A program made the position numbers and the translations under genes. Of a stretch of DNA of 64,000 bases, positions 7,101-64,000 are shown in pieces. The DNA is from Eledone cirrhosa. Taxonomy: Eukaryota. Where the stretch lies: contig OZ024741.1 in the NCBI GenBank assembly GCA_964016885.1, positions 34,410,001-34,474,000 on the forward strand, in the 5' to 3' direction. Below the pieces are notes generated by a model. It searched no databases. It saw only the letters and a list, made by a program, of their open reading frames with translations, and was not told where the DNA came from. Every line of letters starts with the position of its first letter. Within the stretch, counting starts at the first letter, position 1.

Positions 7101-10100
7101 AAGTCAAGGTATGTTGTGTGAGGTGTAGTGTAGTAAGTCAAGGTATGTTGTGTGAGGTGTAGTGTAGTAAGTGAAGGTATGTTGTGTGAGGTGTAGTGTA
7201 GTAAGTCAAGGTATGTTGTGTGAGGTGTAGTGTAGTAAGTCAAGGTATGTTGTGTGAGGTGTAGTGTAGTAAGTCAAGGTATGTTGTGTGAGGTGTAGTG
7301 TAGTAAGTGAAGGTATGTTGTGTGAGGTGTAGTGTAGTAAGTCAAGGTATGTTGTGTGAGGTGTAGTGTAGTAAGTCAAGGTATGTTGTGTGAGGTGTAG
7401 TGTAGTAAGTGAAGGTATGTTGTGTGAGGTGTAGTGTAGTAAGTGAAGGTATGTTCTGTGAGGTGTAGTGTAGTAAGTCAAGGTATGTTGTGTGAGGTGT
7501 AGTAAGTCAAGGTATGTTGTGTGAGGTGTAGTGTAGTAAGTCAAGGTATGTTGTGTGAGGTGTAGTGTAGTAAGTCAAGGTATGTTGTGTGAGGTGTAGT
7601 GTAGTAGGTCAAGGTATGTTGTGTGAGGTGTAGTGTAGTAAGTCAAGGTATGTTGTGTGAGGTGTAGTGTAGTAAGTGAAGGTATGTTGTGTGAGGTGTA
7701 GTGTAGTAAGTCAAGGTATGTTGTGTGAGGTGTAGTGTAGTAAGTGAAGGTATGTTGTGTGAGGTGTAGTAAGTCAAGGTATGTTGTGTGAGGTGTAGTG
7801 TAGTAAGTGAAGGTATGTTGTGTGAGGTGTAGTGTAGTAAGTCAAGGTATGTTGTGTGAGGTGTAGTGTAGTAAGTCAAGGTATGTTGTGTGAGGTGTAG
7901 TGTAGTAAGTCAAGGTATGTTGTGTGTAGTGTAGTAAGTGAAGGTATGTTGTGTGAGGTGTAGTGTAGTAAGTCAAGGTATGTTGTGTGAGGTGTAGTGT
8001 AGTAAGGCAAGGTATGTTGTGTGAGGTGTAGTGTAGTAAGTCAAGGTATGTTGTGTGAGATGTAGTGTAGTAAGTCAATGTATGTTGTGTGAGGTGTAGT
8101 GTAGTAAGTGAAGGTATGTTGTGTGAGGTGTAGTGTAGTAAGTCAAGGTATGTTGTGTGTAGTGTAGTAAGTGAAGGTATGTTGTGTGAGGTGTAGTGTA
8201 GTAAGTCAAGGTATGTTGTGTGAGGTGTAGTGTAGTAAGTCAAGGTATGTTGTGTGTAGTGTAGTAGGTCAAGGTATGTTGTGTGAGGTGTAGTGTAGTA
8301 AGTCAAGGTATGTTGTGTGTAGTGTAGTAAGTCAAGGTATGTTGTGTGAGGTGTAGTGTAGTAAGTCAAGGTATGTTGTGTGAGGTGTAGTGTAGTAAGT
8401 CAAGGTATGTTGTGTGTAGTGTAGTAAGTGAAGGTATGTTGTGTGAGGTGTAGTGTAGTAAGTCAAGGTATGTTGTGTGAGGTGTAGTGTAGTAAGGCAA
8501 GGTATGTTGTGTGAGGTGTAGTGTAGTAAGTCAAGGTATGTTGTGTGAGATGTAGTGTAGTAAGTGAAGGTATGTTGTGTGAGATGTAGTGTAGTAAGTC
8601 AATGTATGTTGTGTGAGGTGTAGTAGGTCAAGGTATGTTGTGTGAGGTGTAGTGTAGTAAGTCAAGGTATGTTGTGTGAGGTGTAGTGTAGTAAGTGAAG
8701 GTATGTTGTGTGAGGTGTAGTGTAGTAGGTCAAGGTATGTTGTGTGAGGTGTAGTGTAGTAAGTCAAGGTATGTTGTGTGAGGTGTAGTGTAGTAAGTCA
8801 AGGTATGTTGTGTGAGGTGTAGTGTAGTAAGTCAAGGTATGTTGTGTGAGGTGTAGTAGGTCAATGTATGTTGTGTGAGGTGTAGTGTAGTAAGTCAAGG
8901 TATGTTGTGTGAGGTGTAGTGTAGTAGGTCAAGGTATGTTGTGTGAGGTGTAGTGTAGTAAGTGAAGGTATGTTGTGTGAGGTGTAGTAAGTCAAGGTAT
9001 GTTGTGTGAGGTGTAGTGTAGTAGGTCAAGGTATGTTGTGTGAGGGGTAGTGTAGTAAGTGAAGGTATGTTGTGTGAGGTGTAGTGTAGTAAGTCAAGGT
9101 ATGTTGTGTGAGGTGTAGTGTAGTAGGTCAAGGTATGTTGTGTGAGGTGTAGTGTAGTAAGGCAAGGTATGTTGTGTGAGGTGTAGTGTAGTAGGTCAAG
9201 GTATGTTGTGTGAGGTGTAGTGTAGTAAGTGAAGGTATGTTGTGTGAGGTGTAGTGTAGTAAGTCAAGGTATGTTGTGTGAGGTGTAGTGTAGTAAGTGA
9301 AGGTATGTTGTGTGAGGTGTAGTGTAGTAGGTCAAGGTATGTTGTGTGAGGTGTAGTGTAGTAGGTCAAGATATGTTGTGTGAGGTGTAGTGTAGTAAGT
9401 GAAGGTATGTTGTGTGAGGTGTAGTGTAGTAGGTCAAGGTATGTTGTGTGAGGTGTAGTGTAGTAAGTGAAGGTATGTTGTGTGAGGTGTAGTGTAGTAA
9501 GTCAAGGTATGTTGTGTGAGGTGTAGTGTAGTAAGTGAAGGTATGTTGTGTGAGGTGTAGTGTAGTAGGTCAAGGTATGTTGTGTGAGGTGTAGTGTAGT
9601 AGGTCAAGATATGTTGTGTGAGGTGTAGTGTAGTAAGTCAAGGTATGTTGTGTGAGGTGTAGTGTAGTAAGTCAAGGTATGTTGTGTGAGGTGTAGTGTA
9701 GTAAGTCAAGGTATGTTGTGTGAGGTGTAGTGTAGTAAGTGAAGGTATGTTGTGTGAGGTGTAGTGTAGTAGGTCAAGATATGTTGTGTGAGGTGTAGTG
9801 TAGTAAGTCAAGGTATGTTGTGTGAGGTGTAGTGTAGTAAGTCAAGGTATGTTGTGTGAGGTGTAGTGTAGTAAGGCAAGGTATGTTGTGTGAGGTGTAG
9901 TGTAGTAAGTCAAGGTATGTTGTGTGAGGTGTAGTGTAGTAAGTCAAGGTATGTTGTGTGAGGTGTAGTGTAGTAAGTCAAGGTATGTTGTGTGAGGTGT
10001 AGTGTAGTAAGTGAAGGTATGTTGTGTGAGGTGTAGTAGGTCAAGGTATGTTGTGTGAGGTGTAGTGTAGTAAGTCAAGGTATGTTGTGTGAGGTGTAGT

Positions 10101-45756: not shown

Positions 45757-45817
45757 TTTAAGTAAGTGCCCTATATAGAGTGAGAAATGAAATTTCGTTT
45801 CATTCTATTCCATTTAT

Positions 45818-45918
45818 ATATATAGTAATAATAATAAATTTGAAGACTAAAATCCAAAGAGGGCTCGATAAGGATAAATATATATCAAATATATAAGAAC
45901 CGTAGAGCAAATATTTAT

Positions 45919-45920
<2 letters not shown>
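45818..45920 (-). mobile_element. Fragment of the Penelope-like terminal repeat seen at 57600-58281
   Basis: ataataataaatttgaagactaaaatccaaagagggctcgataaggataaatatatat...aagaaccgtagagcaaatatttat is near-identical to 57713-57805. Confidence 0.8.
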
Positions 45921-50512: not shown

Positions 50513-50641
50513 CAAAATTTGTTTTATAAATGTTGACATACTCGTAGAAAAACAACCTTGACGATTGAAGGTTCGCAGCGAACCTTGAACCGTCAAGGTT
50601 ATTTTTCTACGAGTATGTCAACATTTGTAAAACAAATTTTG

Positions 50642-50706
50642 TATTTTATCTGATGAAAGCGCACCAAAACTGCCTTGGTTGCCTTTGAAATATATATAAT
50701 AAAATA
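50642..50706 (+). ncRNA. Type I hammerhead ribozyme (right palindrome arm)
   Basis: Stem I uauuuuau/auaaaaua (8 bp), CUGAUGA, stem II aagcgcaccaa/uugguugccuuu, GAAA, palindromic stem III A-UAUAUA-U and an AUA cleavage triplet. Confidence 0.75.
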
Positions 50707-50813: not shown

Positions 50814-51239
50814 TTTAGGTTTGTTGGTTCACCACTGGATAGAACTGGTCATTCTGTATGGTGGCCACCCGGACTGGCAACTGCTAATATTTTGGCCGCC
50901 TTCTCGTCTTGGGCATCTCTCTGCTTGCTTTCCACCCTCTTGGATTGTGTCTATTATATTCCTTTGTATAATCATCATCATCATCATCATCATAAGACCA
51001 TAATCATCTATATATATGTATATATAAATATATATATAGCTTTTAAGCTATTTTGTAGTATCTCTGTTCATGAGCACACCACTTATTATATTAAATTTAT
51101 CTCCTCGGTGCTTTGTAAAAGTCTGAGAGATTCGCTACATATATGTTTTATATTTTTTTTGTGTGTTTAGATGGAAGACAAAACAAGGACCATGAAGACA
51201 AAACAAAGGTGAAGAAGAGAAAGATAAAGATGAAGAACC

Positions 51240-52822
51240 TCACCACACCACACCACAACACCGCACTACACTACACCACACCACACCACATCATACAACA
51301 CCACACAACATCATATCACATTTCAACATATCACACCACACACCACTACATACCATCACACCACACCACACTGCACCACATCACATCTCAACACACTGCA
51401 TCACATCACACTGCACCACACCAATAAAAACACACCACACTACATTTTCATTCATTCATTTCATTTTATGTCCGCTTTTCCCTGCTTGCAAGGGTGGGAG
51501 CAGGAACTGATTCTGGCTTGATTTCTACAGCTGGATGCCCTTCCTAACACCAACCTCATTTACAGTGAGTGCTGGGTGCTTTTTTGCCGTGGCACCTCCA
51601 CGACCACTTTGCAGTGGAATGATATGGACCCCAGTCCCTATCATCTCATTTCTACAGCTGAGTAAACTGGAGCAATGTGAAATAAAGTGTCTTGCTCAAG
51701 GAAACAACACATCACCCGGTCTGAGAATTGAACTCACAACCTTTCGATTGCAAGGCCAATGCTCTAACCACTAAGCCATGTGCCTCCACATAAAAACGCA
51801 CCACACTACTCCACACCACATAACACCACACCACATAACACCACAACACAACACACAACACTACACCACTCCACATAAGAACACAACACTACACCACACC
51901 ACATAAGAACAAACAACACTACACCACACCAATAAAAACACACAACACTACACCACACCACATAAAAACATACCACACTACACCACACCACATAAAACAC
52001 ACCACACTACTCCACATAAGAACACACAACACAACACCACATAAGAACACACCACACTACTCCATATAAGAACACACAACACTACACCACACCACATAAA
52101 AACACACCACACTACTCCACATAAGAACATACAACACAACACCACACCACATAAAAACACACCACACTACACCACACCACATAAAAACACACCACACTAC
52201 ACCACACCACATAAAAACACACAACACTACACCACACCACATAAAAACACACCACACTACTCCACATAAGAACATACAACACAACACCACATAAAAACAC
52301 ACCACACTACACCACACCACATAAAAACACACAACACTATTCCACACCACATAAAAACACACAACACTATTCCACACCACATAAAAACACACTACACCAC
52401 ATAAGAACACACTACACAACACCACATAAGAACACACAACACTACACCACACCACATAAAAACACAAAACACTACACCACATAAAAACACACCACACCAC
52501 ACCACATAAAAACACACAACACTACACCACACCACATAAAAACACACAACACTACACCACACATAAAAACACACCACACTACTCCACATAAGAACATACA
52601 ACACAACACCACACCACATAAGAACACACCACCCTACACCACACCACACTACATCACATAAGAACACACAACACTACACCACACAACATAAAAACACACA
52701 ACACTACATTACACCACATAAGAACACACCACACTACTCCACACTACTCCGCACCACATAACACCACAACACAACACACCACTCCTCACTACATCACACC
52801 ACACTACTCCACACCACACTAC
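51240..52822. repeat. Degenerate (CACCA/CACTA/CAACA)n pentamer tract with ~25-30 bp higher-order units
   Basis: Recurrent cacataaaaacacaccacactacaccacac and cacataagaacacacaacac units. Confidence 0.9.
51446..51789 (-). mobile_element. SINE family B copy inserted in the pentamer tract
   Basis: Reverse complement is near-identical to 41999-42330; possible TSD ataaaaac(a/g)caccacactac at 51424-51443 and 51790-51809. Confidence 0.92.
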
Positions 52823-52825
52823 AAG

Positions 52826-53243
52826 TCAGGTGGTGAACACTTTGAAACTCGTCGGAGAGAACACCTAACACTGAAAAGGAAGGTTAGGAAAAGAGGCTGT
52901 TCTGAACTGGCTGCTGTTGAACATCATCTGGTTTGCCAGCTCTGTGGTTGAGTCAGCCTGAGCAAAGCTGGTTTGATTAGACATGAACAAAGTCATAACA
53001 GTAGACCTTATGTAGATTATGATCTGAAAAGATGTAAGGAATGTGCAAGCATGAGAGGTCTTAAAAGACACATGAGGACACACAGCCAGAACAAAGCAAT
53101 GGAAGGTTTCGGGGGAGCCTAAAGTTGACATGCGTGTGCCAGAGGGTCTTTGGCTGGTTTAAAGAGCCACATTTGTGCCTCACATTTTTGAACATTTTAT
53201 CGGGCGATGGCAATACTCGAACACGAGTTTGCAGCCATCATGT
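52826..53243 (+). pseudogene. 3' end of an RTE/BovB-like LINE with C2H2-like C-terminus
   Basis: Translates to GGEHFETRRREHLTLKRKVRK, ECASMRGLKRHMRTH and LAGLKSHI, and ends in the stem-loop gatggcaatactcgaacacgagtttgcagccatc. Confidence 0.65.
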
Positions 53244-53247
53244 AATA

Positions 53248-53870
53248 TGTCGGGTCACTCTTAAGTGCTACTGGTAACATGTAACCCAGTACAACCTGTC
53301 GCATGGTCGGGTCGTCGGTGACTAAACCGGCAACCCCACCAAGTTTAATTGGTGAGGAGGGTGATTTTGGACACCCTGCAGGACAAAAACCAAAACCTGA
53401 TAAAGGGCAGAAGAAGTCATAAGAGTCAACGGCCATCCAAAAGTGTGTAAATATGTATATACACATGTACATATGCATGTATATGTGTATATACATGGGT
53501 GCATGTGTATGTATATGCGTGGTGACATAGAAATAGTCGGGCTAGACACTCGATCGTGCGGTTAAACCACTGGGAATGAAGGATCCCTAGCCTTTGTCAG
53601 GGCATTCTTCTAGGAGAAGGCAACTCAGGAAACTGGAATAACTCCAATATAAAACCTGCGGCTCAGTAGTTACTGATGATGTTGATCTTTTCTTCTTTTC
53701 GAGTTATAGCTACTGTCGCTCAGAGAGTGGGATTGGCTCAGTGCACAGTCTTTCCTCATTTTAAAAAATATCTTCACGCACAGGCATTGCACAATAGAAT
53801 TAATTAATAATTATAAATAATGGTATATCGTGCAATGGCCATACTCGATAACGAGGGGGCAGCCATCATG
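53248..53870 (+). mobile_element. Second non-autonomous RTE-derived element
   Basis: Homologous to 42705-43317, with the same terminal stem-loop atggccatactcgataacgagggggcagccatc. Confidence 0.65.
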
Positions 53871-54104
53871 TATGCATGCATGCATGTATGCGTGTGTGTT
53901 TGAGTGTGTGTGTATATATATATGTGTGTGTGTATATATATCTCCATATTTATTCAGCTGATATAGGCTGGATTGGTTGGAATATTCTGACGCGAATTCT
54001 TTCTGCTCTGTTAAATCGAAACAAATCTTGACTTTTTATTTGAAGTTTTCTATATAAGAGACCGGGAGACCATGTTGATACTATGAAGGACATTTGTCCT
54101 AAGC

Positions 54105-54700
54105 CGCCTGGACTATTGCTCCCAGCTGTGGTCACCCCATAGTATCAAACTAACCACGGAACATGAGGCAATCCAATGAAGCTACACCAAGAGGATTGCC
54201 ACGATGAAAGAGATGAGCTACTGGGAGAGGCTAAAAGAACTGAAACTCTACTCCTTGGAACGAAGACGGAAGAGATATGTAGTGATATACATATGGAAAA
54301 TCCTGGAGGGACTAGTGCCAAACTTTCGCATTGAGAGCGGGACCAACCCCCGAACAGGATGTCACTGTGTGGTGACAAAGGTCCAGTCTTCCACATCTAG
54401 GATAAGAAGCAGATATTGCAATAGACTGGGGTTCAAAGGCCCTCAACTCTTCAACAAACTGCCTAGGGATTTGAAAGATCTACATGGTGTGGCCGTGGAT
54501 ATTTTCAAGAAACTTCTCGACACCCTGTTATCCAGGATCCCGGATGAGCCCACATCACGGTACGAAGGTAACCTAAGGGCAGCAGCAACAAACTCCCTCT
54601 TACATCAATGGCAAGCCAACACAGGCTGGAGATAGAATGTGTAGCAACAAGGACAGTGCCCAATCATGGTCTCAGCCAGATGGCTGGAACAACTAAAAGA
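54105..54700 (+). pseudogene. CR1/L2-type LINE 3' fragment
   Basis: ORF 54204-54635: MSYWERLKELKLYSLERRRKRY...GPQLFNKLP...FKKLLDTLLSRIPDEP. Confidence 0.88.
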
Positions 54701-54729
54701 GTATATATATATATATTTAATATAGAAAT

Positions 54730-54781
54730 GGCTTCAACAGGACTAGAACTGTTTCATTCGGAGGAAATCATCAGAAAAGCC
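54730..54781 (-). ncRNA. Type I hammerhead ribozyme downstream of a Penelope-like ORF end
   Basis: Minus strand: ggcuuuu-CUGAUGA-u-uuc cucc gaa-u-GAAA-cag uucuaguc cug-UU-gaagcc. A partial sibling with a GUA triplet lies at about 41120-41151. Confidence 0.65.
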
Positions 54782-54962
54782 GACTGTCAATGTAATATGG
54801 TGGTATTTATACATTTTCTGGTGGTAGGGGAGGGTAGTAAATTGATGCTAAGTAGACAAACACATACACACTGACAGACACTCCTAATGTTCAAGGTTCA
54901 TTTATTCCAAACAAAGAAAGGGTTTTCATTGAGTGGCAATATTAAAATGCTCTGCTAAAGGA
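54782..54962 (-). mobile_element. Penelope-like element 3' remnant (GIY-YIG C-terminus)
   Basis: Minus-strand PLAEHFNIA and KTLSLFGINE resemble the PVAxHFN and TLxPxGLN motifs at the end of PLE endonucleases. Confidence 0.55.
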
Positions 54963-54967
54963 TATAA

Positions 54968-54982
54968 ATATGTGTGTGTGTT

Positions 54983-55035
<53 letters not shown>

Positions 55036-55142
55036 TTTTGAGTATATATATATATATATGTGTGTGTTTGTGTATATATATAATATATATATGTGTGTGT
55101 TTGTGTATATATATAATATATATATGTGTGTGTGTGTTTGTG

Positions 55143-55210
<68 letters not shown>
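54968..55210. repeat. (TA)n/(TG)n compound microsatellite
   Basis: Direct inspection. Confidence 0.95.
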
Positions 55211-55211
<1 letters not shown>

Positions 55212-55214
55212 AAA

Positions 55215-55747
55215 TTTCAATAATATTAAGACTCCCTAATGGGGGTTAAACGCCCTATAGTGAAAATGTTGGCCAATAAATGGAACAAGATTTTTACGAA
55301 CTCCTCCTATGGTTTTGGAGATAGACCCCCATAACCATATATATTCTGAAACTTCATTGCCCAGGGTACTTGGATAAGTATATTTCATTTTGATCAAAGG
55401 GTTCACCGGGGGCACAAACCCCCGCTGAAAACTTTTTCCCTTCGATTTATATGAAACTTAAACCATAGGTAAATGACAAGATATGATGCCGATTCACAAA
55501 AGTTTTCAATTGATATTTTGAAAAAAATTATTTTCAAGAAACAAAATAAGAATAAGATTTAATAATGTAATTTTGATTTGATATATTACAAAAAATGATG
55601 TTTTCCAATTTTTCATGCAATATATTTTACATTGAGTAATATTGAAATGCAGAGTTTTTCTCCATAAATTACATCACTGATTTAAAATCAATCATTTTCT
55701 TACAAAAAAATGTGGGAAATGCAGCAAGGCGCTGGTAATTCGGCTAG
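55215..55747 (+). mobile_element. Probable non-autonomous Helitron, 3' portion
   Basis: Ends with the short GC hairpin cagc-aaggc-gctg about 10 nt before CTAG|T (55744-55748); the 5' end is not identified. Confidence 0.5.
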
Positions 55748-55791
55748 TATATATATATATGAGTGTGTGTATATATATATGTGTGTGTGTG

Positions 55792-56780
55792 TGTGCTCAT
55801 TATGTAGGAGAGGTGTAGGTAGAAACTCCATCCTCTGCCCCATATGCAAACTATGGGTACACAAGAGATGTAGTGGGATCTCAGGAAGTTTAGTTAAGAA
55901 TGTAGGCTTTACATGTAGCAGTTGCACCAGGACAGTAAGCAGCAAACAATCACTGAAAACAAGTGACATCAAAGTCTGGGAGGACTGGGTAAAAACTACC
56001 GAATTAGCAGCGGAGGTGGGTGTTCTGAAAGAACGGGATGGAAGAAGTTGAGAGAGCTACTGCCACAGCTGGATACAAAAGGCTTTTCCCTCAGAATAAA
56101 AGGTAGACTGTATGATGTGTGCATATGAACGGCAATGTTGCATGGTAGTGAGAGCTGGGCGCTGTGTGTAGAAGACTTGCGTAGATTAGAAAGGAATGAA
56201 GCTTGTATGCTCCGATGGATGTGTAATAGTAATATACGCGAACAGCAAAGTATAAACAAACTTAGAAAGAAACTAGGCATAAGAGGAATCAAATGTTGTG
56301 TGCAAGAGAGGAGATTATGTTGGTATGGACATGTGATGTGTATGAAGGATGACAGCTACATAAAAACCCAGGAAGACTTGAGATAAAGTGATAAAAGCCG
56401 ACCTTGCCCAATTGCACCTCTGAAAGGCAATGACACAGGACCAAGATCTCTGGCGTTATGAGGTAATACAGAAACCCCAACTTCCCACAGGCCCAGGCCA
56501 AGGCTGAAACATACATACGGTATGCACCATTCCATCCCACCCTCCCATATATCTTTCATGAGAACAGGCCGAAACACTGTAAAGTGGTCGTGATGGTGAC
56601 ATGGTAAAAAACACCCAGTCCACACTGTAAAGTAGTCGTGGAGATATCACGACAAAAAGCACCCAGTACTCATTGTAAATGAGCTTGGCATTAGGAAGGG
56701 CATCCAGCTGTAGAAACCTAGCCAAAATCAGTTCTTTATGAGCAAGAAATGGTCACCTGACCTAACATTGCCAACAACAG
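55792..56780 (+). pseudogene. RTE-clade LINE 3' portion with deletions
   Basis: CSLCRRGVGRNSILCPICKLWVHKRCSGI; MLHGSESW...RRLCWYGHV; shared 3' UTR. Confidence 0.88.
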
Positions 56781-56781
56781 A

Positions 56782-57172
56782 AGGCACATGGCTCAGTGGT
56801 TAGAGCATTGGGCTTGCAATTGAAAGGTTGTGAGTTCAATTCTCGGACCGGGTGATGTGTTGTTTCCTTGAGCAAGACACTTTATTTCACATTGCTCCAG
56901 TTTACTCAGCTGTAGAAACGAGATGATAGGACTGGGGTCCCTATCAATCCACTGCAAAGTGGTCGTGGAGGTGCCACGGCAAAAAAGCACCCAGCACTCA
57001 CTGTAAATGAGGTTGGTGTTAGGAAGGGCATCCAGCTGTAGAAATCAAGACAGAATCAGTTCCCGTATGAGCAAGACAAGGTCAGCCGACCGGACACTGC
57101 CCACAACAGGACAATCCGTCTAATCCATGCTAGCGTAGAAGAACTGACATAAAATGATGATGATGATGATAT
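56782..57172 (+). mobile_element. SINE family B copy
   Basis: ggcacatggctcagtggttagagc...gagttcaattc...ttgagcaagacacttta, RTE-like tail and (GAT)n. Confidence 0.92.
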
Positions 57173-57237
57173 ATAACAGTTTTATAGCTTGCTTGAAGCA
57201 TTGATGAATAGGAAACACAAATTTAAATTTTGAAAAC

Positions 57238-57572
57238 CAAGTTGAGGGCCTTTGTACCCCAGGCTATTGCAATAGCTGCTCCTTATTCTAGATGTGGAAG
57301 ACGGGACCTTTGGTACCACACAGTGACGTCCTGTTCGAGAATTGGTCCAGCTCTCAATGCGAAAGTTTGGTGTTAGTCCCTCCAGGCTTTTCCATATGTA
57401 TATCATTGCATATCTCTCCCGTCTTCATTCCAAGGAGTAGAGTTTCAGTTCTTTTAGACTCTCCCAGTAGTTTATCTCCATCATCGTGGCAATCCTCTTG
57501 GTGTAGCTTCGTTGGATAGCTTCAAGCTCCGTGGTTAGTTTGATACTATGGTGTGACCACAGCTGGGAGCAG
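57238..57572 (-). pseudogene. CR1/L2-type LINE fragment
   Basis: Reverse-complement homologue of 54110-54450 (IYIWKSLEGLTPNFRIESWTNSRTGRHC...GPQL). Confidence 0.85.
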
Positions 57573-57821
57573 ATTATATATATATATATATACACACATA
57601 TATATAGTAATAATAATACATGTGAAGACTAATATCCAAAGAGGACTCGATAGGGATAAATATATATCAATTGTATAAGAACCATAGAGCAAATATTAAT
57701 AAATATATATAGTAATAATAATAAATTTGAAGACTAACATCCAAAGAGGGCTCGATAAGGATAAATATATATAAAATATATAAGAACCGTAGAGCAAATA
57801 TTTATTAAAATAACAGATTAA

Positions 57822-57873
57822 AGTTTAAGCAAAGAATCGGCTGCTTTCACCCTTAACGGGATCTTCTGAAACT
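57822..57873 (-). ncRNA. Type I hammerhead-like motif (U4A core variant), copy 1
   Basis: aguuu-CAGAAGA-u-ccc guuaa ggg-u-GAAA-gca gccgauucuu ugc-UU-aaacu; all three stems pair. Confidence 0.62.
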
Positions 57874-58192
57874 AAAAAAATCAATCTGTGAACGCAGAAG
57901 TAAATATTTTGAAAAACGTTGCAACCAAAGGAAGACAGGAAGACGATACTTTGGTTTGTGGAGACGTAGTTTTGGGTATTTCTTCCTGCTTGGTACGAGT
58001 ATGTTCTTTGTAGAAATATTCAGATGTTGTTTCTGCATGATGAATATAAGTCAATAGAGTGCTCAACCGAGGGAGCTAAATAATAATAATAATAAATTTG
58101 AAGACTAACATCCAAAGAGGGCTCGATAAGGATAAATATATATAAAATATATAAGAACCGTAGAGCAAATATTTATTAAAATAACAAATTAA

Positions 58193-58243
58193 AGTTTCAG
58201 CAAAGAATCGCTGCTTTCACCCTTAACGGGATCTTCTGAAACT
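58193..58243 (-). ncRNA. Type I hammerhead-like motif (U4A core variant), copy 2
   Basis: Same fold 371 nt away; position 17 is G in this copy. Confidence 0.55.
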
Positions 58244-58281
58244 AAAAAAAAAATCAATGTGAACGCAGAAGTAAATATTTC

Positions 58282-58378
58282 GAAGCTGATCTTACCCAAT
58301 TGCACCTCTCAAGGGCAATGACAAACGACCATGACCTCTGGCGTCACGCAGTAATACAGAAGACCCGACTTTCCACAG
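58282..58378 (+). mobile_element. Short RTE 3' coding fragment
   Basis: aagctgatcttacccaattgcacctctcaagggcaatgac...agaagacccgactttccacag matches 49669-49762. Confidence 0.8.
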
Positions 58379-58904
58379 GAACATATAGACAATATTTGTT
58401 TTCCTTTGTTTTTTTATGTCCTATCAACTAATCTGACCTCCAAAATGCTTGCAATTGACTATTTTTTTTAGCATATTAACAACAAATATGATTTCCACTG
58501 CAATTAAAAATGACTAGCTTTGTGAATGGTTTTTCCGCCCACTTTCCGCCTTCATTTTTCTACAAAGCTAGTCATTTACGATAGGTTTCAAAGTCATATT
58601 CATTCATAATATGTGAAAAAAATAGTCAACTGCGAGCATCTTGTGTGATAGGACCTCCCCAAAAAAAGGAAAAAAACTTTTCAAACAGAAATCCCGGTGT
58701 TCTATAAATTCTCGGGGTGTGGTATAATCTGGTTTGATGTAATGTAGGTTAGTGTGGTGTGCTGAGTCATTGTGTTGTGTGGTATAGTATGATTCTCTCT
58801 AACTTAAAATCTTTAAAATGTAATGCCTATCCTCTCTAACTTAAAAAGTGACCTCAAAGATGCTTATAGTCAACTTTTTTCCTGGATTAGTGTTAGATAT
58901 ATAA

Positions 58905-59096
58905 ATAGCAAGGCAGGTAAATAAATACTTAGCTTGGTAGGTAGATAAGTAACTAGCTAAATAGAGGGAGATAGATAGATAGATAGATAGACTGATGCAC
59001 ACATAGCTAGATAGATTGATAGAGAGATAGATACATAGATATATAGACAGTAATATGTATATAGGTATATAATTGGGTAGGTAGGTAGATAGACAG
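58905..59096. repeat. Degenerate (GATA/GGTA)n tetranucleotide tract
   Basis: Direct inspection. Confidence 0.85.
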
Positions 59097-62000
59097 AAAA
59101 ATTTAAGCTGGAAAATTTGTTTTACTTTGTTTTTCATGTGCTTTCAACTTATCTGACCTCCAAGATGCACACAATCAACTATTCTTTTTGCAAGTTATCA
59201 ACGAATATGACTTCCACTGCAATCAAAAATGACTAGCTTCGTGAATGGTCTTTCCGCCCTCTTTTTTCTAGAAAGCTAGTTATTTACGACAGGTTTCAAA
59301 GTCATATTCATTGATATGTGCAAAAAATAGTCAATTGGAAGCACCTTTAATGTCAGTAAAATTATTATCAGAAAAAATAAAAAGCAGGTAGCCAATATGT
59401 CACACACAAAAAAAAGACAGCAAGAAAATTTTTCACACCGAGATAAATAGCTTGGTGCGATGTAGTATGGTGTAACTTGGTATGGTGTAGTGTGGTTTGG
59501 TTTGGTGAAGTTATGAAATGGAAACCAAAATGAATAGCTTTGTAAATGGTATTTCCACCCACATCCTCCCTCTTTTTTCTCATTTTCGTGAGGTTTCCAT
59601 GTCATAACCATTGATAATATGTGCAAAAAATAGTAATTTGCGAGCACCATTTATGTCAAATTGGGTGGTAAGCATAAAAAAAAAAGGCCTAAAAGAAAGT
59701 TTGTCATACCATGATGTAGTATGGTGTGGTTTGGTGAAGTTTCTACAAAGATAGTCATTTTCGACAGGTTTCCATGTCATAATGATTGATAATATGTGAA
59801 AAAAAATAGTCAATTGGGAGCACTTTTAATGTCAGATTGGGTGGTAAGCACACACACAAATAAAAAAAAAGGAAACGGGAAGAACATTTTTCAGACCAAG
59901 ATCAATACCTTGGTGTGATTTAGTATGGTGTGGTTTGGTTTGGTGAAGTTATGAAATGGAAACCAATTGTAAACGATAGGTTCCCATGTCATATTCACTG
60001 GTAATGTGTGGGAAAATAGTCATTTGCAAGCACCTTTGATGTTAGTTTGGGTGGTTACCACAAAAAAAAAAGCAGGTAGCAAATTTGTCACATTGATGTC
60101 CATACTATTGTGTGATGTAAATGGTAGTAGTAGGTGTTCTGTAATAAATTTACCATATGGTGAAGTATGGTGTAGTTTGATATGGTGCGGTTTGGGGTAG
60201 ATTAATGTGATGTGGTGTGCTTTGTTATAAGTAAGGATTTAAATTTTCACTTTGATTTATGTTAGAAAAAAATTTTTTCCTTCATTTTTGCATGTGCTAT
60301 CAACTTATACAACTGCTAAGATGCTCGCAGTGGACTATGCTTTTAGCATATTAACAAAAAATATGACTTCCGTTGCAATAAAAAAATGACTAGCTTCGTA
60401 AATGGTATTTCCACCCACATCCTCCCTCTTTTTTCTACAAAGATAGTCATTTTCGACAGGTTTCCATGTCATAATGATTGATAATATGTGAAAAAAAATA
60501 GTCAATTGGGAGCAACTATGTCAGATTGGGTGGCAAGCACACACACAAATAAAAAAAAAAGGAAACGGGAAGAAACTTTTTCTGACCAAGAACAATACCT
60601 TGGTATGATTTAGTATGGTATAACTTGGTATGGTGTGGTTTGGTTCGGTTTGATGAAGTTATGAAATGGAAACCAATTGTACACAATAGGTTCCCATGTC
60701 ATATTCACTGATACTGTGTGGGAAAATAGTCATTTGCAAGCACCTTTGATGTTAGTTTGGGTGGTAACCACAAAAAAAAAGCAGGTAGCAAATTTGTCAC
60801 ATTGATGTCCATACCATGGTGTCATGTAAATGGTAGGAGTAGGTGCTCTGTAATAAATTTACCATAATATGGTGAAGTATGGCTATGGTGAAGTATGGTG
60901 TAGTTTGATATGGTGTGGATTGGGGTAGATTAATGTGGTGTGGTGTGCTTTGTTATAAGTAAGGATTTAAATTTCCATTTTGATTTATGTTAGACAAAAA
61001 ATGTTTCCTTCATTTTTGCATGTGCTATCAACTATTACAACTTCCAAGATGCTCGCAGTGGACTATGCTTTCAGTATATTAACAAAAAATATGACTTCCG
61101 ACACAATAAAAAATGACTAGCTTTGTAAATGGTATTTCCACCCACATACTCCCTCATTTTTCTACAAAGCTAGTCATTTTAGTCGGGTTTCCATGTCATA
61201 ACCATTGATAATATGTACAAAAAATAGTAATTTCCGAGCACCTTTTATATCAAATTGGGTGGTAAGCACTAAAAAAAAAAGGCCAGGAGAAAGTTTGTCA
61301 CACCAAGATCAATAGCTTGGTGTGATGTAGTATGGTGTGGTTTGGTGAAGTTTCTACAAAGATAGTCATTTTCGACAAGTTTCCATGTCATAATGATTGA
61401 TAATATGTGGAAAAAAAAAGTAAATTGGGAGCACCTTTGTCAGATTGGGTGGTAAGCACACACAAATAAAAAAAAGGAAACAGGAAAAAATTTTTCAGAT
61501 CAAGATCAATACCTTGGTGTGATTTAGTATGGTATAACTTGGTATGGTGTGGTTTGGTTTGGTTTGGTTAAGTTATGAAATGGAAACCAATTGTACACGA
61601 TAGGTTCCTATGTCATATTCACTGATAATGTGTGGTAAAATAGTCATTTGCAAGCACCTTTGATGTTAGTTTGGGTGGTAACCACAAACAAAAAAAAAGC
61701 AGGTAGCAAACTTGTCACATTGATGTCCATACCATGGTGTCATGTAAATGGTAGGAGTAGGTGTTCCGTAATAAATGTACCATAATATGGTGAAGTATGG
61801 TTATGGTGAAGTACGGTGTAGTTTGATATGATGTGGATTGAGGTACATTAATGTGGTGTGGTGTGCTTTGTTATAAGTAAGGATTTAAATTTCCACTTTG
61901 ATTTGTGTTACAAACAAATTTTTTCCTTCATTTTTGCATGTGCTATCAACTATTACAACTTCCAAGATGCTCGCAGTGGACTATGCTTTTAGTATATTAA

Positions 62001-62313
62001 AAAAAAATATGACTCCCGCTGCAATAAAAAATGATTAGCTTTGTAAATGGTATTTCCACCCACATACTCCCTCTTTTTTCTACAAAGCTAGCCATTTTCG
62101 TCGGGTTTCCATGTCATAACCATTGATAATATGTGCAAAAAATATTAATTTGCGAGCACCATTTATATCAAATTGGGTGGTAAGCACTAAAAAAAAAAAG
62201 GCCAGGAGAAAGTTTGTCACACCAAGATCAATAGCTTGGAGTGATGTAGTATGGTGTGGTTTGGTGAAGTTTCTACAAAGATAGTCATTTTCGACAAGTT
62301 TCCATGTCATAAT

Positions 62314-62399
62314 TGTTTCTACGTTAGGCACAAGGCCAGCAATTACCCAGTGTATTACTGGTACTTTATTTTATCGACCCCGTAAGGATGAAAGGCAAA
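62314..62399 (-). mobile_element. 5'-truncated SINE family A inserted in one higher-order repeat unit, 8-bp TSD
   Basis: gtcataat at 62306-62313 and 62400-62407; neighbouring units show the empty site ttccatgtcataatgattg. Confidence 0.92.
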
Positions 62400-64000
62400 G
62401 TCATAATGATTGATAATATGTGTAAAAAAAAATAGTCAATTGGGAGCACATTTAATGTCAGATTGGGTGGTAAGCACACACACAAATAAAAAAAAAAGGA
62501 AACGGGAAGAAAATTGTTCACAGCAAGATCAATACCTTGGTGTGATTTAGTATGGTGTAACTTGGTATGGTGTGGTTTGGTTTGGTGAAGTTATGAAATG
62601 GAAACCAATTGTAAACGATAGGTTCCCATGTCATATTCACTGGTAATGTGTGGGAAAATAGTCATTTGCAAGCACCTTTGATGTTAGTTTGGGTGGTTAC
62701 CACAAAAAAAAGCAGGAAGCAAATTTGTCACGTTGATGTCCATATTATTGTGTGATGTAAATGGTAGAAGTAGGTGTTCTGTAATAAATTTACCATATGG
62801 TGAAGTATGGTGTAGTTTGATATGGTGAGGTTAGGGGTAGATTAATGTGATGTGGTGTGCTTTGTTATAAGTAAGGATTTAAATTTCCACTTTGATTTAT
62901 GTTAGACAAAAGATGTTTCCTTCATTTTTGCATGTGCTATCAACTTCCAAGATGCTCTCAGTTGACTATGCTTTTAGCATATTAACAAAAAATATGACTT
63001 CCGCTGCAATAAAAAATGACAAGCTTTGTAAATGGTATTTCCACCCACATCCTCCCTTATTTTTTCTACAAAGCTAGTCATTTTCGTCGGGTTTCCATGT
63101 CATAATGATTGATAATATGTGCAAAAAATAGTAATTTGCGAGCACCTTTTATATCAAATTGGGTGGTAAGGACTAAAAAAAAAAAAAGGCCAGGAGAAAG
63201 TTTGTCACACCAAGATAAATAGCTTGGTGTGTTGTAGTATGGTGTGGTTTGGTGAAGTTTCTACAAAGATAGTCATTTTCGACAGGTTTCCATGTCATAA
63301 TGATTGATAATATGTGAAATAAAATAGTCAATTGGGAGTACCTTTAATGTCAGATTGGGTGGTAAGCACACACAAAAATAAAAAAAAGGAAACGGGAAGA
63401 AAATTCTTCAGACCAAGATCAATACCGTGGTGTGATTTAGTATGGTATAACTTGGTATGGTGTGGTTTGGTTTGGTTTGGTTTGTTTGGTTTGGTGAAGT
63501 TATGAAATGGAAACCAATTGTACACGATAGGTTCCCATGTCATATTCACTGATAATGTGTGGGAAAATAGTCATTTGCAAGCACCTTTGATGTTAGTTTG
63601 GGTGGTAACCACAAAAAAAAAGCTGGTAGTAAATTTGTCGCATTGATGTCCATACCATGGTGTCATGTAAATGGTAGGAGTAGGTGTTCTGTAATAAATT
63701 TACCATAATATGGTGAAGTATGGTGTAGTTTGATATGGTGTGGATTGGGGTAGATTAATGTGGTGTGGTATGCTTTGTTATAAGTAAGGATTTAAATTTC
63801 CGCTTTGATTTGTGTTAGAAAAAAATGTTTTCTTCATTTTTGCATGTGATTTCTACTATTACAACTTCCAAGATGCTTGCAGTGGACTATGCTTTTAGTA
63901 TATTAACAAAAAATATGACTTCCGCCGCAATAAAAAATGACTAGCTTTGTAAATGGTATTTCCACCCACATACTCCCTCTTTTTTTAACAAAGCTAGTCA

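What the first reader, a model, noticed from the sequence alone, without database searches (positions are those of the whole stretch)
57600..58281. Mini-Penelope unit bounded by two hammerheads 371 nt apart: retrozyme/circRNA-like element
Seen: on the minus strand two ~200-bp direct repeats each contain a three-stem hammerhead fold (58243-58193 and 57873-57822). Between them is a short ORF, MQKQHLNISTKNILVPSRKKYPKLRLHKPKYRL. Known: Penelope-like elements carry type I hammerheads in their pseudo-LTRs, and metazoan retrozymes are small tandem units cut by hammerheads into monomers that circularise. Inference: the ORF looks like the PLE N-terminus fused directly to a (C)xHKxKYxL-type extreme C-terminus. 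That would make this a PLE stripped of RT and GIY-YIG, reduced to a ~371-nt self-processing unit, and a possible intermediate between PLE and retrozyme in a cephalopod. A further terminal-repeat fragment at 45818-45920 shows the family is dispersed. This particular copy may be dead, because one site has G17.
Basis: partly seen in the sequence, partly recalled or inferred. Interest (0 to 1): 0.75.

Follow-up and report, generated by a model that had tools for sequence, protein, structure and literature searches.

The report
Mini-Penelope riding a giant Merlin transposon
This 371-base repeat is a clipped piece of a very common jumping gene (its end repeat plus the first 71 bases of its protein gene), likely made by a copying slip and likely spread as cargo of a much larger cut-and-paste transposon that surrounds every copy I examined; its ribozyme-like fold has a core change that would likely cripple self-cutting, so it is probably not a self-made circular RNA.

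Summary
The two hammerhead-like folds 371 nt apart are real, and the unit is a Penelope-like element (PLE, Hydra-type) lacking 2.9 kb. It is not a free retrozyme. The junction has 100 exact matches. In 30 of 30 sampled matches it sits in the same flank, inside 20-48 kb Merlin DNA transposons with inverted ends and 8-bp target duplications (12 of 17 pairs perfect); some carry the transposase. The core reads CAGAAGA, not CUGAnGA, family-wide (95 canonical of 21,214). 'HKPKYRL' is non-coding repeat, not the C-terminus. New here: the parent PLE makes such mini-units repeatedly. Of 90 ORF-start loci, 13 jump back to the end repeat, 11 of them 30-83 nt after the ATG, each with its own junction. A further 1,451 copies start sharply at G plus the first hammerhead base, so they were likely copied across an uncut site. 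Self-cleavage and circles were not tested. The scan had already noted the giant Merlin family and the U4A core on other DNA.

The parts
57914..58284 (-). 371-nt mini-PLE unit: 5'-clipped pseudo-LTR + 5' leader + first 71 nt of the PLE ORF + start of the next pseudo-LTR
   Evidence: matches full-length copy L144 2382-2694, then 2328-2381
58193..58243 (-). hammerhead-like motif 1: core CAGAAGA (U4A), U10.1-U11.1, G17 at 58198 (most family members have U17)
57968..58038 (-). PLE ORF start (about 24 codons), cut at the junction 57968|57967; no microhomology seen at this junction
57853..58038 (-). 61-codon chance fusion frame (PLE N-terminus read on into non-coding pseudo-LTR)
57706..57913 (-). second pseudo-LTR (208 nt), ending at the family's second common 3' end
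57822..57873 (-). hammerhead-like motif 2: U4A core, U17 at 57827
57601..57707 (-). extra 107-nt 3' part of the pseudo-LTR, running into a TA microsatellite
52822..64000 (-). body of a giant Merlin carrier (SINE/LINE fragments, complex tandem repeats); continues about 13 kb beyond the window; this copy shows no terminal repeat and no transposase
   Evidence: 70-94% identity in blocks to complete carriers; no TIR within 3 mismatches in 60 kb
45816..45918 (-). solo 3' fragment of the parent PLE pseudo-LTR in a TA tract; no hammerhead, no junction

Best explanation
The unit is a Hydra-type Penelope-like element reduced to its end repeat plus 71 bases of ORF, likely made once by a template switch of the element's own reverse transcriptase and then likely copied to about a hundred sites as passive cargo of the giant Merlin DNA transposon that flanks every sampled copy; its U4A hammerhead likely cuts poorly or not at all. 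Steps: (1) SHOWN: an autonomous parent (RT + C-terminal GIY-YIG, about 3.3 kb between repeats, about 21,000 hammerhead-core matches) exists and inserts into TA tracts with two preferred 3' ends. (2) SHOWN: that parent repeatedly yields 170-410-nt pseudo-LTR/ORF-start tandems (rarely longer) with locus-specific junctions clustered 30-83 nt after the ATG. INFERRED: RT primes internally, copies 100-280 nt, then jumps to an RNA 3' end just inside the ORF, often helped by 1-3 nt of microhomology. (3) INFERRED: one such product landed in the ancestral carrier, probably as a multimer that later collapsed or re-expanded by recombination between its repeats. (4) SHOWN: carriers have GGC...GCC inverted ends, 8-bp target duplications and, in some copies, a cognate IS1595-family transposase. 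INFERRED: cut-and-paste moved the whole 20-48 kb block. (5) INFERRED: the unit now drifts neutrally.
For: Unit maps onto parent L144 in two blocks. Junction 100 matches versus carrier 5' junction 91 matches. 30 of 30 position-ordered junction matches (28 distinct loci) share at least 364 of 400 nt of upstream flank; 24 of 30 share over 500 of 800 nt downstream. Target duplications: 12 of 17 TIR pairs 8/8 and one 7/8, versus 0 of 272 non-cognate pairs at 7 or more; three more complete carriers 8/8, 8/8, 7/8. Open 300-aa transposase, PF12762 E 2e-19, about 0.4 kb from the TIR in a unit-bearing carrier; a second at 97% identity. Flank and unit have diverged alike (about 91-96% and 93-96%). 13 of 90 ORF-start loci jump to the pseudo-LTR with 13 different junctions; 11 of 15 exits to the 3' end fall in 54 of 1,070 nt (p about 7e-9 after correction). 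Five junction strings recur at unlinked loci; in 4 of 5 groups the loci carry different parent-subfamily variants, read by eye. Core: 95 of 21,214 canonical. 1,451 copies read G before the first hammerhead base versus 1,155 for A and C together; 30 of 30 checked begin there, and most run through the predicted cut site. PMC11167929 shows for another PLE that RT starts internally on pseudo-LTR/ORF-junction RNA, extends both DNA strands and does not need hammerhead cleavage.
Against: No cleavage assay and no RNA data, so inactivity is inferred; PLE hammerheads can be protein-assisted (PMC11167929) and U10.1-U11.1 cores can work (PMC3088659). The other core positions and all three stems are kept across about 21,000 copies, which suggests some function in the parent. 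By cell counts the core is less variable than its flank in carriers (6 of 636 versus 140 of 5,144, p 0.005; 3 of 636), although the gap vanishes when shared alleles are counted once. Junctions repeat identically in both arms or in tandem at 7 of 8 multi-junction loci, which a circular template explains as well as repeated jumps. One recurrent-junction group (3 of 4 loci) could be a single lineage. Only 30 of 100 junction matches were inspected, all on contigs C1-C2. 4 of 17 TIR pairs had no target duplication, one perfect pair lies in a TA tract, and the window's own carrier has neither TIR nor transposase.
Confidence: 0.8

Rival explanations
1. Mini-circle origin: the short tandems, including this one's ancestor, were copied from small circular RNAs spanning the pseudo-LTR/ORF-start region. 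They would be newborn retrozyme-like units, and this one was later frozen inside Merlin. This differs from the best explanation only in step 2.
For: Same junction in both separately primed arms or in tandem at 7 of 8 multi-junction loci. Dimers occur in carriers. Seamless parent tandems fit the circle model proposed in PMC4209133.
Against: Junctions lie 20-170 nt upstream of the hammerhead in nearly all cases, not at its cut site, so the ribozyme did not make them. One locus has a 1-nt variant among 4 junctions. A linear RNA with fixed ends and end-to-end jumps gives the same pattern. Many junctions have 1-3 nt overlaps.
Confidence: 0.25
2. One reading: an active non-LTR retrozyme. Tandem transcripts self-cleave at both hammerheads, circularise and are re-inserted by the PLE.
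For: Two motifs 371 nt apart, unit size within the 150-450 bp range of PMC7229834, low GC, dimers present, and the unit keeps both priming sites of the parent.
Against: 0 of 30 sampled junction copies have independent flanks; U4A core and U17/G17; circle z -0.64; no arrays above three units seen in the sampled loci or in the match list; no selection on the motif by allele count.
Confidence: 0.07
3. An ordinary DNA-level internal deletion of a full-length PLE after insertion (repair by end joining), then amplified by the carrier.
For: A pseudo-LTR-deletion-pseudo-LTR layout looks like this; repair deletions of PLEs are described in PMC3846280; 5 of 90 loci have ordinary deletions inside the ORF.
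Against: Break points of this type cluster in a 54-nt window and repeat in both arms of one insertion, which repair deletions would not do. The window's junction (ATG+71) falls inside that cluster.
Confidence: 0.08

Closest known systems
Hydra clade of Penelope-like elements (Craig et al. 2021, PMC8557442; section 11 and passages read)
   Same: Parent has one ORF with RT and C-terminal GIY-YIG, an RWR motif (RWK in the paper), DKT, a CxCX5C linker, CxxC and CxH around the conserved E and N, TA-tract insertion, and a hammerhead in the pseudo-LTR (motifs read by eye).
   Different: About 3.3 kb versus 'generally <3 kb'; the paper reports canonical hammerheads, here the core is U4A family-wide; no tree was built.
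Animal non-LTR retrozymes (PMC7229834, part 2 of 6 read; bioRxiv 10.64898/2026.07.22.740005, parts 1-3 of 5 read)
   Same: Short low-GC tandem unit with one type I hammerhead layout per repeat, derived from a PLE pseudo-LTR. The preprint already argues that origin.
   Different: No canonical core, no stable circle fold, no independent insertions, only 1-3 units; it keeps an ORF stub and its exact parent is in the same genome.
Merlin superfamily (PMC8101967, passages read)
   Same: 5'-GG terminal inverted repeats, 8-bp target duplication, DDE_Tnp_IS1595 transposase, internal tandem repeats.
   Different: 20-48 kb and mostly cargo. The giant-transposon review PMC6431247 has no occurrence of 'Merlin'. 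An extra internal TIR lies 0.3-0.45 kb from the right end.
Poseidon PLE of Anolis (Frangieh et al. 2024, PMC11167929, parts 1-2 of 4 read)
   Same: Two internal RT start sites near the pseudo-LTR/ORF junction, both strands extended, hammerhead cleavage dispensable.
   Different: There the starts are 111-118 nt inside the ORF; here the two common 3' ends lie before the ATG. In the parts I read the paper does not describe short jump-made tandems.

Membership tests
non-LTR retrozyme | short tandem unit (150-450 bp), low GC | tested here: met
   371 nt; 1-3 units per locus
non-LTR retrozyme | complete type I hammerhead core in consecutive units | tested here: not met
   U4A in both sites and family-wide, N17 = G/U; Rfam 0 hits
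non-LTR retrozyme | dispersal as independent insertions | tested here: not met
   30 of 30 sampled junction matches share the carrier flank
non-LTR retrozyme | stable, highly self-paired circle | tested here: not met
   -55.7 kcal/mol versus -52.0 +/- 5.9 for 60 shuffles, z -0.64
non-LTR retrozyme | self-cleavage; linear and circular monomer RNA in vivo | not testable with these tools
   needs bench work or RNA reads
Penelope-like element derivative (Hydra clade) | pseudo-LTRs flanking an RT + C-terminal GIY-YIG ORF in the parent | tested here: met
   L144, L141. Pfam found nothing on the parent itself; 2 of 18 homologues hit RVT_1 and 2 hit GIY-YIG, all below cut-off; 14,873 relatives at E <= 0.001
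Penelope-like element derivative (Hydra clade) | RWK, DKT, CxCX5C linker, CxxC/CxH; (TA)n targets | tested here: met
   RWR, DKT, CxCX5C, CxxC, CxH read by eye; TA-tract ends
Penelope-like element derivative (Hydra clade) | placement in an RT tree | not tested
   no reference set available
Merlin DNA transposon (carrier) | TIRs starting 5'-GG | tested here: met
   24-nt end motif, 389 exact matches; absent from the window's own copy
Merlin DNA transposon (carrier) | 8-9 bp target duplication | tested here: met
   12 of 17 perfect 8 bp, control 0 of 272 at 7 or more
Merlin DNA transposon (carrier) | IS1595-family DDE transposase between the same TIRs | tested here: met
   PF12762 E 2e-19 in carrier L075, 97% copy in L387; most carriers, and the window's, lack it

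The most novel reading that the evidence does not exclude
This PLE is a retrozyme nursery: it sheds small circular RNAs from its pseudo-LTR/ORF-start region without using its hammerhead cut site, and its RT writes them back as locus-specific 170-410-nt tandems (on the order of a hundred independent births here). The window's unit is one such birth, preserved about a hundred times by a giant Merlin. Retrozymes would then arise from these units whenever the parent has a working ribozyme.
Probability: 0.25. Interest if true: 0.75.

Novelty: new variant of a known kind. Interest (0 to 1): 0.5.

Why it matters
As a retrozyme the finding fails, and it is a clear case of copy number misleading: the junction family is multicopy because a 20-48 kb DNA transposon carried it. 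What remains is useful. First, a PLE whose RT makes retrozyme-sized tandems at a sharp hot spot gives a testable route from PLE to retrozyme, a link that the 2026 preprint supports by co-occurrence and trees only. Second, a family with about 21,000 hammerhead cores, nearly all U4A, and over a thousand copies apparently copied from the RNA's very 5' end across the cut site, bears on the open question of whether PLE hammerheads need to cut at all. Third, it adds a cargo item and target-duplication counts to the giant Merlin family.

Tried and rejected
Rfam scan of the window: 0 matches. Pfam and PDB sequence searches on the parent ORF: none. Sequence look-up in earlier findings: nothing. First idea that the unit is the 3' terminus of a giant Terminon-like retroelement: rejected when the downstream flank proved shared and ended in a TIR. 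The 14 alternative junctions picked from the peptide search were biased towards the window's junction, so clustering was retested on 90 loci chosen only by the ORF-start pattern (first 30, then 60 of the next 63 listed on C1; 3 known carriers and the last 7 of 100 listed were left out; 795 matches in all). One TIR pair was dropped because both ends faced the same way. Apparent conservation of the core in carriers did not hold when alleles were counted once in 25 junction-selected loci (5 of 30 dropped as duplicates or window lineage). A spliced mini-exon as source of the extra 5' G: no shared upstream sequence beyond a T in 20 of 30 copies, so a cap-derived G is preferred but unproven. No sharp peak of 5' ends at the predicted cut site among 90 ORF-start arms (2462, 2466, 2474 only). 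Literature searches without a matching paper: Merlin + transposon + cephalopod + giant, 3 papers; U4A hammerhead, 0; Penelope + hammerhead + octopus, 5 papers, 4 listed; Penelope internal deletion/pseudo-LTR, 16 papers, 12 listed. These were judged from listings unless stated. Supplements were not read; Figure 5/S6/S7 of PMC3088659 and file S2 of PMC8557442 may list a U4A core.

Full report
OBSERVATION. The minus strand holds a 371-nt unit (58284-57914), a second 208-nt repeat (57913-57706, 95% alike) and a third 107-nt piece (57707-57601) ending in a TA tract. Both long repeats have a type I hammerhead layout: 5-bp stem I, 3-bp stem II, 4-bp stem III. Both cores read CAGAAGA where the hammerhead consensus is CUGAnGA (established knowledge; PMC4209133), position 10.1-11.1 is U-U, and N17 is G and U. 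Rfam finds nothing and the fold is not favoured in isolation. The ORF is 61 codons long and does not end at KYRL.

THE PARENT. The core pattern has 21,214 exact matches in the genome, only 95 (0.45%) with canonical U4 and none for the reversed control. So U4A is the family state and the 95 look like scattered point changes. The first 30 matches are mostly 5'-truncated or inverted PLE insertions ending in TA tracts. L144 is a full-length copy: pseudo-LTR, ATG at 2624, RT and GIY-YIG regions, stop at about 4753, second pseudo-LTR 3,259 nt after the first (this copy has a late stop and frameshift). Its motifs match those given for the Hydra clade in PMC8557442 section 11 (read by eye, no tree). 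The window's unit equals L144 2382-2694 joined to 2328 (5587 in the 3' copy), a loss of about 2.9 kb. The KYRL stretch is therefore pseudo-LTR sequence 834 nt past the stop; the true C-terminus is different, and 26 of 28 junction copies have E for the K.

WHY IT IS MULTICOPY. A DNA search gave 46 near-full units at 91-100% among 40 candidate regions scored of 4,845. All 30 fetched loci shared upstream flank. In 19 extended loci the shared DNA ran about 9-20 kb upstream and, in most, 6-11 kb downstream and stopped at inverted ends beginning GGC. The junction has 100 exact matches and the carrier-unit boundary 91. The first 30 junction matches by position (28 loci) all have the carrier flank. 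The end motif has 389 matches that bracket the units. Of 17 outer pairs, 12 have a perfect 8-bp duplication, one 7 of 8, four none; 0 of 272 non-cognate pairs reach 7. Lengths with duplications are 20-48 kb. PF12762 matches lie next to the right end of several carriers; one has an open 300-aa ORF and another a 97% copy. GG ends, 8-bp duplication and this domain define Merlin (PMC8101967). The window's carrier spans 52822 to about 13 kb past the window end and has no TIR or transposase. With C2:16.5 Mb (L002) it forms a side lineage that shares G17 and keeps the parent's loop II. Flank and unit have diverged to a similar degree, so the unit was aboard before the carrier spread. In carriers the motif collects variant alleles at the flank's rate (core 5 in 12 columns, stems 14 in 22, flank 41 in 98). 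Raw cell counts show a less variable core, which I attribute to shared lineage variants in the flank but cannot fully exclude as selection.

HOW THE UNIT WAS MADE. Among 90 loci chosen only for the ORF start (of 795 matches), 69 run on for 1,100 nt or more, 13 jump back to the pseudo-LTR, 2 jump to the 3' UTR, 5 have ordinary internal deletions and 1 ends in flank. Eleven of the 13 leave the ORF 30-83 nt after the ATG (p about 7e-9); all 13 junctions differ. A gapped pattern lists 49 such junctions at 43 loci, one of them a carrier, forming a ladder of one-base steps. Five strings recur at unlinked loci, but in four of the five groups the loci belong to different parent subfamilies (by eye), which points to repeated microhomology-guided events rather than re-insertion. 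Where one insertion holds several junctions they are identical in 7 of 8 loci and differ by one base in one, and in most two-armed loci the arms end at the two different common 3' ends (L144 2496 and 2581). PMC11167929 showed for a Poseidon PLE internal RT initiation on junction RNA, extension of both DNA strands and no need for hammerhead cleavage. My reading: read-through RNA ends 30-90 nt into the next ORF; RT primes internally, copies a short stretch, jumps to that 3' end and may repeat. A small circular template explains the repeats equally well and is the main rival for this step.

DOES THE HAMMERHEAD CUT? Untested. Against: U4A, U17 or G17, and 1,451 copies that read G directly before the first base of stem I (versus 1,155 for A and C together). 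All 30 inspected begin there with no upstream parent sequence, and most continue through the predicted cut site. The simplest reading is a transcription start at that base with a cap-derived G, copied from uncut RNA (inference). For: the remaining core and stems are kept family-wide; PMC3088659 reports working U10.1-U11.1 cores and a weakened but viable U4C variant (passages); PLE hammerheads may need dimers or protein (PMC4209133, PMC11167929).

COMPARISON AND NOVELTY. It resembles a retrozyme in layout but fails three testable criteria (core, independent insertion, stable circle). That retrozymes derive from PLE pseudo-LTRs is already argued in bioRxiv 10.64898/2026.07.22.740005. My searches found no paper on giant Merlins in cephalopods, on a U4A core, or on a hot spot of short jump-made PLE tandems (listings, with passages as stated). 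Papers seen: preprint parts 1-3 of 5; PMC4209133 parts 1-2 of 4; PMC11167929 parts 1-2 of 4; PMC7229834 part 2 of 6; PMC8557442 section 11 and passages; passages of PMC8101967, PMC3846280, PMC6431247, PMC3088659, PMC13282606; no supplements. Earlier notes of this scan report the same giant Merlin family and the U4A core on other DNA; I had reached both before that call, and they are not independent support.

VERDICT. Real structure, right ancestry, wrong mechanism: a reverse-transcription by-product of a Hydra-type PLE, multiplied as cargo of a giant Merlin. New variant of known kinds; interest 0.5, mostly for the recurrent birth of such units and the U4A family.

Noticed in passing
G000 contigs C1-C4: 85 of 100 junction matches lie on the four largest contigs, which hold 54% of the genome (binomial p 5e-11; tandem and neighbouring copies inflate this), whereas 44 of 95 canonical-core parent copies do. 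Giant carriers seem to favour or persist on these chromosomes.
   Followed up: partly
L391-L420; L144:2422: At least 1,451 parent copies start at G plus the first hammerhead base; many are only 75 or 160 nt long and often paired head to head. Yet ORF-containing arms mostly start at 2570-2624 (40 of 90) and almost never at 2422. Unexplained.
   Followed up: partly
window 4203-28446: 24-kb array of a 34-bp GT-rich unit (719 copies), similar in make-up to the ACCAC-type repeats inside the giant carrier; window 28.5-31.9 kb also matches carrier sequence at about 70%.
   Followed up: no
window about 50640-50706, + strand: A second, unrelated minimal hammerhead with a canonical CUGAUGA core and palindromic AT-rich stem III, probably from another PLE family.
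   Followed up: no
window 51006-52823, + strand: A fragment of the 5' region of another carrier in opposite orientation abuts and truncates the window's carrier.
   Followed up: partly
L058 about 8590-9090; also L060, L218: Near the left end of many carriers sits a different pseudo-LTR-like repeat with a canonical hammerhead (long stem II, GUA site) and weak likeness to this unit's leader.
   Followed up: no
carrier right ends, e.g. L206/L207, L209/L210: An internal copy of the TIR lies 0.3-0.45 kb inside the right end, always after the same flank, so the end looks like a nested short element; such short pairs have no target duplication.
   Followed up: partly
G000:C211 (4 matches) and C5:12.4-13.0 Mb (4 matches): Junction matches recur at 155-215 kb spacing, suggesting carriers inside very large tandem duplications.
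   Followed up: no
L032 (carrier 5' region, about 17 kb upstream of the unit): A 31-bp tandem with CCCTAAA-like telomere-type motifs inside the carrier cargo.
   Followed up: no
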